Below, piece after piece: positions 31,436-36,532 of a stretch of DNA of 64,000 nt (its first letter is position 1; every line of letters starts with the position of its first letter). The position numbers and the translations under genes were made by a program. Location: NCBI GenBank assembly GCA_002780175.1, contig PEVT01000048.1, forward strand, positions 8,754 through 72,753. Reading direction: 5' to 3'. Origin of the DNA: Candidatus Moranbacteria bacterium CG06_land_8_20_14_3_00_40_12 (GTDB taxonomy: Bacteria; Patescibacteriota; Minisyncoccia; Moranbacterales; UBA2206). The notes under the pieces are model-generated. The model had not been told where the DNA came from, made no database searches, and saw only the letters and a list, made by a program, of their open reading frames with translations.

Positions 31436-32160
31436 GGCAATACGTGTTAAATTTAAATAAATTAATTTTTTCCAGCCAATAAATGGTAGTGTCCAAGAAA
31501 TATTTTAAAAAGAAAAGCGGGTGAGTTTTTTGGTTTTTTTATTAAATGGATAAAAAAATTGGAAACCCGCGTAAGCGGTTTTTTTGTTTGTTTCTACCAG
31601 GTACTAATTACTAATCAAATACCTGCCTACCGGCAGGCAGGCTAATATACTAATAAATTAATTTTATTATTCGTATATTCGTAATAAATTCGTAATTCGT
31701 AAAGATTACAAGCATTACTTCGGAAACCAGTTTATATAACAAAAGATTAGGTTATATGCACACGTTTCCGCAGCAGCAGGACTTTAACAATTGAACAGGT
31801 CTTACTAAAATATTGGATTTCGAGCGCAAGCGGAAATTCGAATTGAATATTTTGGTTAGTCTTCCGGCATCTTCGCAATAAGATGCTGGAAATAGGTTAT
31901 CTTTGTTTTTATGAAGAAAAAACAAAGAAAATTGCAAATAACAAATGTAATTAGAAATTGTTAACTGCTAATTAATTCCGATCTTCTTATGATCGGAAGA
32001 TTCCTGTGAAAAATCAGGAAAAGTTTAAGGTAAGTTACTCAAATGCGTATGGTGGATGCCTTGACATTAAAAAGCGACGAAGGACGTAGCTGGCTGCGAT
32101 AAGCCCCGGGGAGTTGTTAAGCAAACTGTGATCCGGGGATTTCCGAATGCGATAACGCAA

Positions 32161-32350
32161 CCATTCTTCACTAACGTTCAGAATGAAATTTTAAAGACTA
32201 AATTTAAAATTTTAAATCAAATCTAAATGACTAAATTTTAAAAATTTAATCATTTGAAAATTTAAAATTCATTTAAAATTTATAATTTAAAATTGAAAAT
32301 TTACAGTTTTTGTAAATATAAAAGTTCTGAATATTAGCGAAGGATGGTTA
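32161..32350 (+). repeat. AT-rich expansion element in 23S domain I (copy 1)
   Basis: Starts CCATTCTTCACTAACGTTCAGAATGAAATTTTAAAGACTAAATTTAAAATTTTAAATCAAATCTAAATGAC. More than 90% identical to 32474-32600. Its terminal arms are imperfectly complementary. Confidence 0.7.
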
Positions 32351-32473
32351 TTCTTAGCTGAATTCATAGGTTAAGAAAGCGCACCCTGGGAACTGAAACA
32401 TCTTAGTACCAGGAGGAAAAGAAAACAATTGTGATTCCGTCAGTAGTGGCGAGCGAAAGCGGAATAGCCTAAA

Positions 32474-32638
32474 CCATTCTTCACTAACGTTCAGAATGAA
32501 ATTTTAAAGACTAAATTTAAAATTTTAAATCAAATCTAAATGACTAAATTTTAAAACTTTAATCATTTAAAAATTTAAAATTCATTTAAAATTTATAATT
32601 TAAAATTAAAAATTTCCGAGCAATAGCGAGGGATGGTG
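32474..32638 (+). repeat. AT-rich expansion element in 23S domain I (copy 2)
   Basis: Same element as 32161-32350. It is inserted ~130 nt further into the rRNA, after AGTAGTGGCGAGCGAAAGCGGAATAGCC. Confidence 0.7.
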
Positions 32639-32943
32639 TTGCGAGACAATCTTACTCGTTTAATCGGGACCGGTGAAAAATCATAGTGGAAAGCTCCTGG
32701 AAAGGACTGCCAAAGAAGGTGAAAGCCCTGTACATAAAATGATATTTTATCGGCGTGATTGCTCTCAAGTAAGACGGGACCGGTGAAATCCCGTCTGAAT
32801 CCGGGGCCACTATAGCTCCAAGGCTAAATATTTTTAATGATCGATAGCGAACTAGTACCGTGAGGGAAAGGTGAAAAGCATCCCGATGAGGGAGATGAAA
32901 TAGTATCTGAAACCATATGCTAACGAAGAGTCAGAGCCGTGCA

Positions 32944-33118
32944 TAGCACGGAAGCTCCAAATCCAAAATCCCAAATCCAAAATAAATCCCAAATCCAAAA
33001 TCCCAAAGTTTAAAACATTGGGTCATTGGAAAATTGTCTGGCTTTGCCAGACTTGGCGTAGCCAAGGAATTTGTTTGGAAATTGGAAATTGGAAATTGGA
33101 AATTCCGCGCTGTGCGCG
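32944..33118 (+). repeat. IVS-like insertion at 23S helix 25 (CCAAATCC/GGAAATTGG repeat arms, central GTCTGGCTTTGCCAGAC palindrome)
   Basis: It replaces the helix-25 loop between GAGCCGTGCATAGCACGGAAG and GCGCTGTGCGCGGTGATGGCGTGC. Arms are CCAAATCCAAAATCCCAAATCC... and ...GGAAATTGGAAATTGGAAATTCC. Confidence 0.7.
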
Positions 33119-33938
33119 GTGATGGCGTGCTTTTTGTAGAACGAGCCAACGAGTTAGTTCTGTGCGGCTGGATAAGCTACTTTCGTAGCGGATCCACAGT
33201 GAAAGCGAGGCTTAACCGCCGTTCGTTCGTATCATACTGCGTGTGATACTCACTTAAAATCAAAATTAAAAAATCAAAAATTAAAATTTTGGTATGCGCT
33301 TCGCGCATGACAATTATAGATAAGTAATTGTCGCGAAGCGACTCCTTAATTTTTCATTTTGATATTTAATTTTTAAATTTTAGCGAGTATCGAGCGTAGC
33401 GAGATACGAGCGATTGTCGTACGGACTAGACCCGAAGCCAGGCGAGCTATTTATGAGCAGGGTGAATTTGGAGTAAAATCCAAAAGAGGCCCGAACCCAC
33501 GAGCCGTTCAACACTCGGGGATGACTTGTGAATAGAGGAGAAATTCCAATCGAGCTTGGCGATAGCTGGTTCTTCCCGAAATAGCTTGAGGGCTAGTGTC
33601 TTTTAAATGAGCTTAAAAGGTAGAGCTACTGAATGAGAATTCGCGGTTCGCCGTAGGATTCTCAACCAAACTCCGAATTTTTAAGTTTCTTATTAGGGCA
33701 GTCAGAAATCCGGGTCTAAGCTCGGATCTCAAAAGGGAAAAAGCCCAGACCGCAATCTAAGGTCCCCAAATTTATGTTAAGTGGAAAAGGAGGTGAAGTT
33801 TCTTATACACCTAGGAGGTTGGCTCAGAAGCAGCCATCCTTTAAAGAGTGCGTAACAGCTCACTAGTCTAGAGACTTTGCGCCGAAAATTTAACGGGGCT
33901 AAACATAATACCGAAGGTGCGGGTCAGTGTTATGCACT

Positions 33939-34092
33939 GGAAATCCCAAATCCAAAATCCCAAATCCAAAATAAATCCCAAATCCAAAATCCCAAAGTTT
34001 AAAACATTGGGTCATTGGAAAAGTGCCTGCCTGCCGGCAGGCAGGGAATTTGTTTGGAAATTGGAAATTGGAAATTGGAAATTCCAGCGCGT
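33939..34092 (+). repeat. IVS-like insertion at 23S helix 45 (same arm element, central CCTGCCTGCCGGCAGGCAGG palindrome)
   Basis: Arms identical to 32944-33118. The central hairpin is swapped for the 20-bp GC palindrome at 34026-34045. Confidence 0.7.
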
Positions 34093-35620
34093 AGCGCTGG
34101 CGGTAGGGAAGTGTTCTCTGCGCAGCGAAGTCCACGATGTGAATCGGGATGGAGCGCAGAGAAGTAAGAATGTTGGCATGAGTAACCACAATACCGATGA
34201 AAACTCGGTACACCGAAAGTCTAAGGTTTCCTGGGCAATGACAATCATCCCAGGGTTAGTCGGGCCTAAGGCGAGGCCGAAAGGCGTAGTCGATGGACAT
34301 ACGGTTAATATTCCGTAACTTCAAAAATTTTCGATGGAGCGACGTATCTTTGTAGTTTTTGCGCATTATTGGATTTGCGTATTTAATTTGAGGGTGCTTT
34401 TCAGGCAAATCCGGAAAGTATCGCCCAAGAATTAGGTGGAATTCCGACGTAAGTCGGGAGAACAAAGGCGAGCAAGGTACCAGGAAAAACTTCTAAGATT
34501 ATGATTTTTGAATCCGTACTAAAACCGACACAGGTAGACTGGGCGAGAAGCCTAAGGTGAACGGATGAACCTTCGTCAAGGAACTCTGCAATACAACTAG
34601 ACGTAAGTTAGCAAGATGTCTTTCCTACACCACCTTGATTCTTTAGATTATTTTTTAATAAGGAATCAGAGTGGTGTAGGACACAGTAAAAAATTTCAAG
34701 CGACTGTTTATCAAAAACACAGGTCTCTGCAAACTCGCAAGAGGAAGTATAGGGGCTGACGCCTGACCAGTGCTGGAACGTTAACGGAAGCGGTGCAAGC
34801 CAATTCCCGAAGCGCCAGTGAACGTCGGCGATAACTATAATCGTCCTAAGGTAGCGAAATTCCTTGTCAGGTAAGTTCTGACCCGCATCAAAGGCGTAAC
34901 GACTTGAAAACTGTCTCGACGAAGAGTCCGGTGAAATTGCAATGGCGGTAAAGATGCCGTCGACCTGCAGCAAGACGAAAAGACCCCGTGGAGCTTTACT
35001 ACAACTTGGTATTGACTTAGAGTTTTAGTTGCCGAGCTTAGGTGGGAGGCTGTGAAGTCCCGATTCTGGTCGGGATGGAGCCAACAAGTGGAATACCACC
35101 CTGCTGATGTTCTAAGTCTAACCCTGGTCTGTTATGAGTCTACTAAGACGAATAACCATTGATGAACCAGAAAATATACTCAAATTGTTTAGTGTGTTTT
35201 TCATGGTTCAAAAATTTATTTAGTCTTAGTTATTCATACCAGACCGGGAACAGTGCCTGGTGGGTAGTTTGACTGGGGCGGTCGCCTCCTAAATGGCAAC
35301 GGAGGCGTTTACAAAGGTTGGCTAGGTCCGGATGGAAATCGGACTGATAGTACAAAAGCATAAGCCAGCTTTACTGAAAGACCCATAAGTCAATCAGTCA
35401 CGAAAGTGGAATTTAGTGAACCGACCATCGCTCATAGGAGCGTGGAAGATCATCAGATAAAAGTTACCCCGGGGATAACAGGCTGATCCCTCCCAAGAGT
35501 CCACATCGACGGAGGGGTTTGGCACCTCGATGTCGGCCCATCGCATCCTGGGGGTGGAGAAGCTCCCAAGGGTTTGGCTGTTCGCCAATTAAAGCGGTAC
35601 GCGAGCTGGGTTCAAACCGT

Positions 35621-35903
35621 AAAACAGCTTTTAGCTATTAGCTTATAGCTTTTAGGTAAAGGAAATTTTACAGTTTGAATCCGAGGTAAAGACATCACAA
35701 GCGGCGGCTTTTAGTAGCAATATTAAAAGTGAAGCTAACTTATATCGGTAAAATCCCGAATTCTCGGGACAATACCGAGGGAATGGTTCGACTTTGCTCA
35801 CCATGAGCGATAAGAATCGACCCGTAGAGACTAAACGTTAGCCTTCCTGAATTTTAGGGAAGAATTTATAGTCCATACACGCAGTAATGCGTGAACCAGT
35901 ATG
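35621..35903 (+). ncRNA. Putative group I intron (283 nt) in 23S domain V near the peptidyl-transferase centre
   Basis: It interrupts GGGTTCAAACCGT | CGTGAGACAGGTTGG (E. coli GGGUUUAGAACGUCGUGAGACAG). The 5' exon ends in U and the insert ends in G. P7-like strands AGAGACTAAACG and TATAGTC sit ~60 nt apart. No ORF. Confidence 0.5.
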
Positions 35904-36099
35904 CGTGAGACAGGTTGGTCTCCTATCTGCTGTGGGCGTTTATTGCTTGAGAGGAGTCTTTTTTAGTACGAGAGGACCGAAAAGAACGAACCTCTGGTGT
36001 ACCAGTTGCATCGCCAGATGCACAGCTGGGTAGCTAAGTTCGGACTGGATAATCGCTGAAAGCATATAAGCGAGAAGCCATCCTCAAGATTAGGCAATG

Positions 36100-36290
36100 C
36101 CAATGCGTAGCATTGGAATAACCAATGACCAAGTACCAATGACCAATAAATTTCCAATGACCGAATGAACAATTTTTAAATTAAAAGTTTGATTATTGGA
36201 GTTTGGGATTTGAGATTTTTTTGGAATTTGGAATTTGGAATTTGGAAATTCCACTGCTATGCAGTGGCCGATTTCCTGGAAGATTACCAG
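36100..36290 (+). repeat. Expansion insertion in 23S 3' domain (helix ~98 region) with (GGAATTT)x4 and CCAATGACC repeats
   Basis: Sits between GCATATAAGCGAGAAGCC and GATAGGTCTCAGGTGTAAGT. Contains TTTGGAATTTGGAATTTGGAATTTGGAAATTCC. Confidence 0.6.
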
Positions 36291-36532
36291 GTCGCCGCGA
36301 GGCGAACCTCGCCAAAGCCGCAAGGCGGAGGCGGGTTGATAGGTCTCAGGTGTAAGTCCGGCAACGGATTAAGCCGAGAGATACTAATAAATTGAATTGT
36401 TACTTATCTTAAATTTTAATGACGCAGGCACATAGCAAATAACTTTGGGTTATTCGCTGTGGCCGCGTGTTGTTGGATTAGCAGTTAATAGTTTCTAATT
36501 TCGCGCTTTTTTTGATTTTAAACATATAATTC

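What the first reader, a model, noticed from the sequence alone, without database searches (positions are those of the whole stretch)
32029..36410. 23S rRNA gene expanded by ~1.5 kb: shared IVS-like elements at helices 25 and 45, duplicated AT-rich element in domain I, further expansions
By eye-alignment to E. coli 23S the gene carries at least eight insertions. The ones at 32944-33118 and 33939-34092 have identical repeat arms (CCAAATCCAAAATCCC... / ...GGAAATTGGAAATTGGAAATTCC) but different central palindromes. They sit at the two canonical IVS sites. In Salmonella, Leptospira and Campylobacter, IVSs at those sites are excised by RNase III and leave a fragmented 23S. A third arm-sharing element lies in the 3' domain (36100-36290). 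Domain I carries two copies of another ~160-bp AT-rich element at different positions. The prediction is that the mature 23S rRNA of this organism is fragmented. Long-read or rRNA-depleted RNA-seq would show internal gaps.
Basis: partly seen in the sequence, partly recalled or inferred. Interest (0 to 1): 0.62.

Follow-up and report, generated by a model that had tools for sequence, protein, structure and literature searches.

The report
Mobile hairpin cassettes in 23S rRNA
The single 23S rRNA gene of an uncultivated Moranbacteria (CPR) bacterium carries one self-splicing intron and nine hairpin insertions at helix tips, and most of the hairpins are copies of small palindromic repeats that also sit between genes, which bears on where rRNA 'intervening sequences' come from.

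Summary
Window 32028-36411 is a complete bacterial 23S gene of 4384 nt, about 1.48 kb longer than E. coli's. It is reproduced at 99.9% or more in five independent assemblies. It belongs to a Candidatus Moranbacteria (CPR) genome from Crystal Geyser. I count ten insertions. One is an old, conserved extension of H79. Eight are hairpin cassettes at helix tips: H9, H15, H25, H31, H45, H63, H98 and about nt 2829. A congener (L013) lacks seven of the eight and carries an unrelated cassette at H15. The cassettes are modular: REP-like terminal hairpins, arms of 7-nt repeats and small GC palindromes. The same cassette occurs at different helices in one gene, at other helices in other Moranbacteria, and between genes. 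One cassette is 95% identical between two species whose 23S cores are only 83% identical. Insertions in CPR rRNA genes, including IVS-like ones at H25 and H45, are already published. The link to dispersed palindromic repeats was not found in the literature searched. Excision by RNase III and a fragmented 23S remain likely but untested.

The parts
32028..36411 (+). Complete 23S rRNA gene, 4384 nt, of a Candidatus Moranbacteria (CPR) genome
   Evidence: Rfam RF02541 matches the full model at 2257.8 bits. The sequence is identical in five independent assemblies. The organism name comes from the RodA cluster and from GCA_002771255.1.
31949..31972 (+). 5' half of the pre-23S processing stem; it pairs with 36477-36500
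   Evidence: Inverted repeat I7: 24 nt, 92% complementary, bracketing the gene. Its role as an RNase III processing stem is inferred by analogy with other bacteria.
36477..36500 (+). 3' half of the pre-23S processing stem
   Evidence: pair I7.
32160..32348 (+). H9 cassette (T1 type): REP-like terminal hairpins flanking an AT-rich core of about 120 nt. It replaces the 17-nt cap seen in L013.
   Evidence: Boundaries come from the empty site in L013. It forms a hairpin with a basal stem of about 24 bp, z=-6.5. It is 98% identical over 144 nt to the H15 copy and 95% identical to the H45 cassette of L021.
32474..32636 (+). H15-region cassette (E. coli nt about 274-286), a second copy of the T1-type element
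   Evidence: L013 has an unrelated insert of about 115 nt here, L014 has almost none, and L021 and L052 carry T1-type cassettes.
32938..33118 (+). H25 cassette (T2 type): mini-hairpins CCGTGCATAGCACGG and CCGCGCTGTGCGCGG, heptad arms (AAATCCC / TTGGAAA) and central GC palindromes
   Evidence: In L013 the site holds the 16-nt hairpin TCCGACGTAAGTCGGA. Fold -78.9 kcal/mol, z=-9.9. The terminal hairpins recur in the H9 insert of L014.
33220..33408 (+). Cassette in the hairpin at E. coli nt 640-656 (H31 from memory), T3 type: GTATCATACTGCGTGTGATAC ... GTATCGAGCGTAGCGAGATAC
   Evidence: Absent from L013, L014 and L021. z=-7.7. The same termini occur at H98 in L008 and L014.
33924..34100 (+). H45 cassette (T2 type). 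It shares its arms with the H25 cassette, and its centre is CCTGCCTGCCGGCAGGCAGG.
   Evidence: z=-8.9. The central palindrome recurs, exactly or with one mismatch, between and inside genes at 47316-47337, 56219-56241, 31622-31642 and 8846-8865.
34626..34678 (+). H63 tip extension: 53 nt in place of 12 nt in L013
   Evidence: pair I9; z=-8.7.
35136..35238 (+). H79 extension: an older, conserved, lineage-specific expansion that is not of the repeat-cassette type
   Evidence: About 98% identical in L013 and L008 and homologous in L014 and L011. Eight of 45 predicted pairs show compensatory change. It folds better in the sense strand (-53.9 against -41.1 kcal/mol; 6 G.U pairs against 0).
35621..35903 (+). 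ORF-less group I intron at E. coli position 2593
   Evidence: Rfam RF00028, 51.8 bits (gathering score 50), E=1.8e-12. The 5' exon ends in U and the intron ends in G. The intron is precisely absent from L008, L011, L012 and L021 and present in L013 and L014.
36100..36267 (+). H98 cassette (T2-type termini CCAATGCGTAGCATTGG / CCACTGCTATGCAGTGG; arms CCAATGA / TTTGGAA)
   Evidence: L013 has the 16-nt cap TCCCGATTTATCGGGA here. z=-7.2. Its 3' arm is 89% identical to those of the H25 and H45 cassettes.
36290..36333 (+). 44-nt GC-rich insert near E. coli nt 2829
   Evidence: Absent from L013, L014 and L021. z=-3.1.
44321..44440 (-). Intergenic copy (mreB to glycosyltransferase) of the AT-rich core of the H9/H15 cassette
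   Evidence: 89% identical over 121 nt to the H9 cassette. Present in the orthologous spacer of L008 and absent from L011, where the gap is 11 nt.
47303..47422 (+). Intergenic copy (glycosyltransferase to holB-like gene) of the same AT-rich core, with the GC palindrome of the H45 cassette nested inside
   Evidence: 91% over 79 nt plus 96% over 24 nt to the H9 cassette, and a 22-nt exact match to the H45 centre.

Best explanation
This is the genuine single-copy 23S rRNA gene of a Moranbacteria (CPR/Patescibacteria) genome. It holds three kinds of insert.

(1) A 283-nt ORF-less group I intron lies at position 2593. It is expected to self-splice so that the exons are ligated.

(2) An old, structurally conserved extension of H79 is probably kept in the ribosome.

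(3) Eight evolutionarily young hairpin cassettes sit exactly at the tips of surface helices: H9, H15, H25, H31, H45, H63, H98 and about nt 2829. Six of these (H9, H15, H25, H31, H45, H98) are composites of small palindromic modules: REP-like terminal hairpins, arms made of 7-nt tandem repeats, and 15-20 nt GC palindromes. These modules also occur between genes, and possibly inside variable protein linkers, in the same and related genomes.

The cassettes are copied at the DNA level between helix tips of one gene and between co-occurring species. They persist only where the ribosome tolerates a protruding or broken helix. This is shown by sequence comparison.

In the primary transcript each cassette folds into a long hairpin whose 15-25 bp basal duplex is the kind of substrate RNase III cuts. 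The inferred outcome is excision without religation. If the six large cassettes are removed, the mature 23S would consist of about seven pieces of roughly 138, 130, 303, 101, 514, 1714 and 149 nt, held together by base pairing and proteins. This step is inferred and was not shown.
For: The gene is real and reproducible.

The intron is supported by the Rfam hit and by its exact absence from relatives.

Cassette boundaries come from the empty sites of congener L013, whose 23S core is 94.3% identical overall and 97-100% identical in the conserved blocks.

All cassettes form hairpins far more stable than shuffled sequence.

Evidence that cassettes are copied within a gene: the H9 and H15 copies are 98% identical, and the H25 and H45 copies 94%. 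In L052 four copies that are 92-98% identical lie in the 5' leader, H9, H15 and H25.

Evidence for exchange between species: the window's H9 cassette is 95% identical (152/160) to the H45 cassette of L021. That is another Crystal Geyser Moranbacteria MAG whose 23S core is only 83.3% identical. T2 termini occur at window H25 and at L014 H9. T3 termini occur at window H31 and at H98 of L008 and L014.

Evidence for spread outside the rRNA: the AT-rich core fills intergenic gaps at 44321-44440 and 47303-47422 and in 8 other Parcubacteria or Moranbacteria genomes. The 23-nt T1 hairpin occurs on about 100 metagenome contigs, nearly all of them non-rRNA and often as inverted doublets. At least one such contig is from a Syntrophomonas-like Bacillota.

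T1 cassettes fold equally well on either strand, as young DNA palindromes would.

IVS biology: H9, H25 and H45 are the classical sites, a tetraloop hairpin is replaced by a long stem-loop, RNase III excises it, and the distribution is sporadic (PMC4990558). CPR bacteria keep rnc (PMC12641178). CPR rRNA insertions are reported to be removed from transcripts, and short non-intron insertions at the H25 and H45 sites were judged probable IVSs (PMC11270868).
Against: No RNA data were examined, so excision and fragmentation are inferred only.

The RNase III gene of this genome was not located; it is not in the window.

All eight sites are also the sites of eukaryotic expansion segments (ES3, 5, 7, 9, 15, 27, 31, 39; from memory). 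Retention in the ribosome is therefore sterically possible, and the H98 and H31 cassettes fold better in the sense strand.

Seven-piece bacterial 23S rRNAs have not, to my knowledge, been documented.

No target-site duplication, transposase or other copying enzyme was identified, so the copying mechanism is unknown.

High identity between AT-rich, low-complexity sequences partly inflates similarity: the family background is about 78-88%.
Confidence: 0.62

Rival explanations
1. The cassettes are retained expansion segments. They stay in the mature 23S as long AU-rich spikes on the ribosome surface, as in eukaryotes, some Asgard archaea and mycobacterial H54a, and the 23S is continuous apart from intron removal.
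For: All sites coincide with eukaryotic expansion-segment sites (positions; the correspondence is from memory). The H79 extension is conserved and covaries, so this lineage does keep at least one expansion. The H98 and H31 cassettes are more stable in the sense strand, with more G.U pairs.
Against: The cassettes are absent from a congener whose 23S core is 94-100% identical. They are exchanged between helices and species. T1 cassettes show no strand bias in folding and have about 16-18% GC. All this argues against a role in the ribosome. Published work says CPR rRNA insertions are removed from transcripts (PMC11270868, citing Brown et al. 2015).
Confidence: 0.27
2. The hairpins grew in place. 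Replication slippage of 7-nt repeats and fold-back (palindrome) extension at helix tips produced them, with no transfer between sites.
For: The arms are tandem heptamer repeats with a different heptamer in each cassette. The P1 loop of the intron also carries a heptamer array. No target-site duplications were seen.
Against: This cannot explain copies that are 92-98% identical over about 150 nt at different helices of one gene. Nor does it explain a 95% identical cassette at another helix in a species with an 83% identical 23S core, or the same core between protein genes. Slippage probably contributes to arm length only.
Confidence: 0.08
3. Assembly artefact: repeats were mis-joined into the rRNA gene.
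For: One metagenome contig (L082) is indeed chimeric. It is joined at the shared 26-nt hairpin unit.
Against: Five independent assemblies from different samples and assemblers give the same 5.5 kb at 99.9% or more. The flanks of every cassette continue the rRNA helix and base-pair with each other.
Confidence: 0.02

Closest known systems
Insertion sequences in CPR rRNA genes (Brown et al. 2015; Tsurumaki et al. 2024, PMC11270868)
   Same: The organism group is the same and so is the phenomenon. That study found insertions in 82% of CPR 23S genes, up to 16 per gene, with a mean total of 1.3 kb. It reports group I introns at position 2593 and short non-intron, ORF-less insertions at the H25 and H45 sites that were judged probable IVSs.
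   Different: The short insertions were left uncharacterised there; the words 'repeat' and 'palindrom' do not occur in that paper. Here they are resolved into modular palindromic cassettes. These recur at several helices, move between species and have intergenic relatives.
Bacterial 23S intervening sequences (Salmonella, Leptospira, Campylobacter, Coxiella, Alphaproteobacteria)
   Same: The sites are H9, H25 and H45. A capped hairpin is replaced by a long stem-loop with complementary termini. The distribution among relatives is sporadic, and there is evidence of horizontal transfer (PMC4990558).
   Different: This gene has six to eight cassettes rather than one or two, and additional sites (H15, H31, H63, H98). 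There is no ORF. The same cassette is duplicated at different helices, and the cassettes are demonstrably related to dispersed repeats. Cleavage by RNase III is untested here.
REP/REPIN elements and Rickettsia palindromic elements (RPE)
   Same: These are short palindromic units that occur as inverted doublets, are dispersed between genes and form hairpins. RPEs also insert into RNA genes and in frame into proteins. Here, repeat-like segments lie in variable linkers of GyrB, LigA and a glycosyltransferase.
   Different: There is no sequence homology to RPEs or to E. coli or Pseudomonas REPs. No RAYT or other transposase was found nearby. The preferred location at rRNA helix tips is not a described property of REPINs.
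Eukaryotic and archaeal rRNA expansion segments
   Same: The helices are identical: H9, H15, H25, H31, H45, H63, H79 and H98 correspond to ES3, 5, 7, 9, 15, 27, 31 and 39 (from memory). The H79 extension behaves like a true expansion segment.
   Different: Expansion segments are inherited vertically, are conserved within lineages and are retained in the ribosome. Most cassettes here are absent from a congener and are interchangeable between sites.

Membership tests
Bacterial 23S rRNA intervening sequence (IVS) | Located at the tip of a surface helix of 23S, classically H9, H25 or H45 | tested here: met
   The covariance-model and E. coli alignments place cassettes at nt about 140, 540 and 1170-1184, and also at about 275, 648, 1712, 2802 and 2829.
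Bacterial 23S rRNA intervening sequence (IVS) | Replaces a short capped hairpin with an extended stem-loop bordered by complementary termini | tested here: met
   L013 has 12-22 nt caps at the same positions. The cassettes have basal stems of 15-25 bp and z from -4.8 to -9.9.
Bacterial 23S rRNA intervening sequence (IVS) | Sporadic presence among close relatives, with signs of horizontal transfer | tested here: met
   See the site-by-genome table. One cassette is 95% identical between species with 83% identical 23S cores.
Bacterial 23S rRNA intervening sequence (IVS) | Excised from pre-23S by RNase III without religation, leaving a fragmented mature 23S | not testable with these tools
   No RNA data were available. 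The only support is indirect: rnc is conserved in CPR bacteria (PMC12641178) and the gene has a processing stem.
Group I intron (insert 35621-35903 only) | Matches the group I covariance model at or above the curated threshold | tested here: met
   RF00028, 51.8 bits against a gathering score of 50, E=1.8e-12.
Group I intron (insert 35621-35903 only) | U at the end of the 5' exon, G at the end of the intron, and a precise intron-less allele in relatives | tested here: met
   The exon ends ...AACCGU, the intron ends ...UAUG, and the next exon starts CGUGAGAC. L008, L011 and L012 join 35620 directly to 35904.
Group I intron (insert 35621-35903 only) | Self-splicing activity | not testable with these tools
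   This needs an in vitro splicing assay.
REP/REPIN (RAYT-mobilised palindromes) | Short imperfect palindromes, dispersed in many copies, often as inverted doublets that form a hairpin | tested here: met
   The T1 unit was found on about 100 of 119 metagenome contigs, with doublets in L028, L038, L058 and others. GC palindromes and the AT core lie in intergenic regions.
REP/REPIN (RAYT-mobilised palindromes) | Association with a RAYT (Y1 HUH transposase) gene in the same genome | not tested
   No such gene was looked for beyond the ORF list of the window, and only 64 kb of the genome was available.
MITE | Terminal inverted repeats plus a target-site duplication | tested here: not met
   The termini are inverted repeats, but comparing filled and empty sites shows replacement of the helix cap with no duplication.
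Retained rRNA expansion segment | Conserved within the lineage, with covariation that maintains the helix | tested here: met
   Met for H79 only: 8 of 45 pairs are compensatory and the extension is about 98% identical in the congeners L013 and L008. Not met for the other cassettes, which are absent from L013.

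The most novel reading that the evidence does not exclude
Bacterial rRNA intervening sequences originate as REPIN-like selfish palindromes. On this reading, a still-active copying process places hairpin cassettes preferentially into stem-loop tips of the heavily transcribed rRNA operon, and also into intergenic spacers. 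It shuffles them between helices and passes them between co-occurring CPR species. The 23-nt terminal unit is shared even with unrelated Bacillota. This locus and L052 would then be snapshots of a recent burst.
Probability: 0.3. Interest if true: 0.75.

Novelty: new variant of a known kind. Interest (0 to 1): 0.55.

Why it matters
The origin of rRNA intervening sequences has been open since 1990; 'remnants of a transposition event' is one long-standing guess (PMC4990558). In CPR bacteria, roughly half of the very abundant rRNA insertions are short, ORF-less and uncharacterised (PMC11270868).

This gene and its relatives link such insertions to dispersed palindromic repeat families. They also capture near-identical copies at different helices and in different species. 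That turns the question of origin into one that comparative genomics, and simple RNase III or E. coli rRNA-insertion assays, can address.

There are practical consequences too. The cassettes break assemblies and can create chimeric contigs (L082). They also make 23S-based probes and length filters unreliable for these organisms.

Tried and rejected
- Chimeric assembly of the window locus: rejected by five concordant assemblies. The 79-nt length difference in the NCBI record is a run of N.
- RodA-anchored relatives L009 and L010 carried no rRNA, and L015 ended before the 23S gene.
- The 18-nt pattern used for the single metagenome scan was too permissive to serve as a census of rRNA cassettes. 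It mainly recovered a widespread non-rRNA repeat.
- No Rfam family matches the repeat doublets. No paper was found by searching the repeat sequence. No paper in the library combined Patescibacteria with MITE or REP terms.
- No copies were found in viral contigs for three patterns, so a phage vector is not indicated.
- Window-wide enrichment of the GCGNAGC mini-hairpin motif is weak: 27 observed against 18.4 +/- 4.3 expected. However, 6 of the 27 lie inside the cassettes.
- Comparing sense and antisense folding gave no uniform signal of selection at the RNA level.
- A formal covariation test of the T1 basal stem was not run. The 5' unit is nearly invariant, and the changes in the 3' unit are a mix of wobble-compatible substitutions and mismatches.
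- Brown et al. 2015 could not be read. Its findings are cited only through PMC11270868.

Full report
**1. What is there**

Rfam's bacterial LSU model matches window 32028-36411 on the + strand from its first to its last position (2257.8 bits). A 5S gene follows at 36532-36647, and there is no 16S gene anywhere in the 64 kb. The gene is 4384 nt against 2904 nt for E. coli rrlH.

Neighbouring proteins identify the organism. The GyrB protein is encoded on contig PCRU01000008.1 of GCA_002771255.1 and on several ENA and JGI contigs. The RodA cluster is named 'Candidatus Moranbacteria bacterium CG06_land_8_20_14_3...'. This is a Crystal Geyser member of the Candidate Phyla Radiation.

Five independent assemblies reproduce the 5.5 kb around the gene at 99.9% or more, with every insert. 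The NCBI record differs only by a run of N. The locus is not a chimera.

**2.

- A 144-nt copy at 32159-32302 is 98% identical to one at 32472-32615.
- A 94-nt copy at 32950-33043 is 94% identical to one at 33939-34032.
- The TTGGAAA-repeat 3' arm is shared by the H25 and H45 elements and, more loosely, by the one at 36191-36252.

Alignment to E. coli and to three full-length relatives gives ten insertion sites. In E. coli numbering, with window lengths:

| Site | E. coli position | Length in window |
|---|---|---|
| H9 | ~140 | 173 nt |
| H15 region | 274-286 | 202 nt |
| H25 | ~540 | 169 nt |
| hairpin 640-656 (H31 from memory) | ~648 | 189 nt |
| H45 | 1170-1184 | 157 nt |
| H63 | ~1712 | 32 nt |
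| H79 | ~2213 | 103 nt |
| intron | 2593 | 283 nt |
| H98 | ~2802 | 161 nt |
| GC-rich insert | ~2829 | 44 nt |

Each hairpin insert folds much better than dinucleotide shuffles, with z from -3.1 to -9.9.

**3. One insert is a group I intron**

The segment 35621-35903 matches Rfam Intron_gpI above its gathering score (51.8 bits, E=1.8e-12). The upstream exon ends in U and the insert ends in G. Three relatives (L008, L011, L012) join 35620 directly to 35904, while L013 and L014 carry the intron. The segment is too short to encode a homing endonuclease. Introns at position 2593 are already reported in CPR 23S genes (PMC11270868).

**4. The H79 extension is a different, older feature**

The H79 extension is about 98% identical in the congeners L013 and L008, although protein-coding DNA between these genomes is only 77-81% identical. 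It is recognisably homologous in L014 and L011, and 8 of 45 predicted pairs show compensatory change. It folds better in the sense strand. It behaves like a retained, lineage-specific expansion segment.

**5. The other eight inserts are young cassettes**

L013 is a congener: its 23S core is 94.3% identical overall and 97-100% identical in the long conserved blocks. At H9, H25, H45, H63 and H98 it has short capped hairpins, and at the ~648 and ~2829 sites it has essentially nothing. At the H15 site it has an unrelated insert.

Comparing filled and empty sites shows that the native cap is replaced by the cassette. No target-site duplication is seen. The more distant relatives L014 and L021 have inserts at many of the same sites, but with different content. 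The sites are hot spots with rapid turnover.

**6. The cassettes are modular and recur**

Six of the eight (H9, H15, H25, H31, H45, H98) share a common modular build, with three kinds of termini.
- T1 is CCATTCTTCACTAACGTTCAGAATG ... TTCYGAGCRATAGCGARGGATGG.
- T2 is a pair of mini-hairpins of the form CCGTGCATRGCACGG.
- T3 is GTATCAYACTGCGTGTRATAC ... GTATCGMGCKTAGCGWGATAC.

Between the termini lie arms built from tandem 7-nt repeats. Often there is a 15-20 nt GC palindrome such as CCTGCCTGCCGGCAGGCAGG.

The same termini turn up at different helices in different genomes.
- T1 occurs at window H9 and H15; at L021 H9, H15, H25 and H45; and in L052 in the 5' leader, H9, H15 and H25, with two further units later in the gene.
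- T2 occurs at window H25, H45 and H98; at L014 H9; and at L021 H63 and H98.
- T3 occurs at window H31 and at H98 of L008 and L014.

The four L052 copies are 92-98% identical to one another.

The window's H9 cassette is 95% identical (152/160) to the H45 cassette of L021. L021 is another Crystal Geyser Moranbacteria MAG, and its 23S core is only 83.3% identical to this one. An AT-rich spacer cannot be better conserved than the rRNA core by descent alone. The most economical reading is recent copying between sites and between co-occurring species.

**7. The modules also live outside the rRNA**

The AT-rich core of the H9/H15 cassette, about 120 nt, fills the intergenic gaps at 44321-44440 (reverse strand, 89% over 121 nt) and 47303-47422 (91% over 79 nt). 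The second copy has the H45 palindrome nested inside it. The mreB-glycosyltransferase spacer is filled in L008 and empty in L011.

An exact 32-nt pattern from the core hits nine species-representative genomes of Moranbacteria and other Parcubacteria. One hit is the L021 rRNA copy. The other eight neatly fill gaps of 117-162 nt between two co-directional ORFs.

The 23-nt T1 hairpin occurs on about 100 of the 119 metagenome contigs returned, nearly all without any 23S sequence. It often forms inverted doublets with GTCATCCTGARCG.AGYGAAGGATC-type units. One such contig comes from a Syntrophomonas-like Bacillota.

One JGI contig (L082) is a chimera joined exactly at this shared unit.

Rfam has no family for these doublets. 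I found no paper describing them, and the CPR rRNA-insertion paper does not mention repeats.

**8. How it most likely works**

Shown by comparison:
- The cassettes are DNA-level palindromes that are copied among helix tips, intergenic spacers and species.
- They survive in the rRNA gene only at surface helix tips.
- T1 cassettes fold equally well on either strand, as young DNA palindromes would.

Inferred:
- In the pre-rRNA each cassette forms a long hairpin with a 15-25 bp basal duplex.
- Together with the 24-bp stem that brackets the whole gene (pair I7), these duplexes are typical RNase III substrates.
- IVSs at H9, H25 and H45 are cut out by RNase III without religation in many bacteria (PMC4990558).
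- CPR bacteria retain rnc (PMC12641178).
- CPR rRNA insertions are reported to be absent from transcripts (PMC11270868, citing Brown et al. 2015).

If the six large cassettes are excised, the 23S would consist of about seven pieces of roughly 138, 130, 303, 101, 514, 1714 and 149 nt.

The main rival is that the cassettes are retained as expansion segments. I cannot exclude this without RNA data. All eight sites are also eukaryotic expansion-segment sites (from memory), and the H98 and H31 cassettes show a sense-strand bias in folding.

The copying mechanism is unknown. No transposase, target duplication or phage copy was found. Slippage of the 7-nt repeats probably adjusts arm length but cannot explain identical cassettes at different sites.

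**9. Comparison with what is known, and verdict**

An expanded CPR 23S gene with introns and IVS-like insertions at H25 and H45 is published knowledge (PMC11270868). As first framed, the finding is a new member of a known kind.

What I did not find in the literature is the resolution of the 'short uncharacterised' insertions into modular palindromic cassettes. These cassettes are duplicated across helices, shared between species at higher identity than the rRNA itself, and related to intergenic and cross-phylum REP-like repeats.

That bears on the unresolved origin of IVSs. I therefore rate it a new variant of a known kind, with interest 0.55. The fragmentation prediction stays open at about 0.6.

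Noticed in passing
window 12367-12400, 12572-12602 (ligA); 27510-27566 (gyrB); 46684-46800 (GT4 glycosyltransferase): Heptamer repeats and GC palindromes of the same style as the rRNA cassettes lie in frame inside hypervariable linker regions of three proteins. Examples are AAGTTTC x5, TCTGGCGAAGCCAGA, and AAATGAC and AAAATCC arrays. Orthologues differ in length and sequence exactly at these places, which resembles Rickettsia palindromic elements.
   Followed up: partly
window 12834-12945 and 13231-13339: Two similar AT-rich hairpin elements of about 110 nt, with GAATTTT and AATTCTA heptads, flank the small gatC gene and fill both intergenic gaps.
   Followed up: no
window 15417-16317: A tRNA cluster (Met, Met, Asp) has a 41-nt x2.8 tandem repeat right after the first tRNA-Met (15504-15616). 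A small GIY-YIG-like ORF (about 15630-15890) lies between the two tRNA-Met genes. More GNA-loop mini-hairpins and heptamer repeats lie at 16170-16220.
   Followed up: no
window 1-64000: The 23S-5S pair is not linked to a 16S gene, and no 16S gene lies within 32 kb upstream or 27 kb downstream.
   Followed up: no
window ~16650-25140 (L002 856-9336): A type I restriction-modification system (HsdM, HsdS, HsdR) lies just upstream of gyrB, with an embedded PIN_12 gene and a SocA_Panacea-domain gene. The relative L013 lacks this block.
   Followed up: no
L013 11452-11468 and 14617-14632; L014 (H15 site): The 'empty' helix tips of the congener carry almost the same small palindrome at different helices (H9, H98, and H15 in L014). 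It reads TCCCGATTT(T)ATCGGGA. It could be a minimal cassette or a scar.
   Followed up: no
L052 326-6801: Another CPR 23S operon spans about 6.2 kb. It has at least six T1-type units, including one in the 5' leader outside the mature rRNA. It is an even more heavily colonised example.
   Followed up: partly
L082 8350-9067: This JGI contig is a chimera between this Moranbacteria 23S gene (100% identical from 8650 onward) and an unrelated genome. The join is at the shared ATTCTTCACTAACGTTCAGAATGA unit, so the repeat causes cross-organism misassembly.
   Followed up: yes
L014 1370-1714: A free-standing gene with the 23S_rRNA_IVP domain (PF05635), normally found inside IVSs, lies a few kb upstream of the 23S gene in a related Moranbacteria genome.
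   Followed up: no
L012 324-703 and L014 10093-10412: Relatives carry a 320-380 nt insertion at E. coli position 1931, a known group I intron site. The window gene lacks it.
   Followed up: no
window 35626-35655: The 5' region of the group I intron (the P1/P2 loop) contains its own heptamer array, AGCTTTT x4.3. This is the part that differs most from the L013 intron.
   Followed up: no
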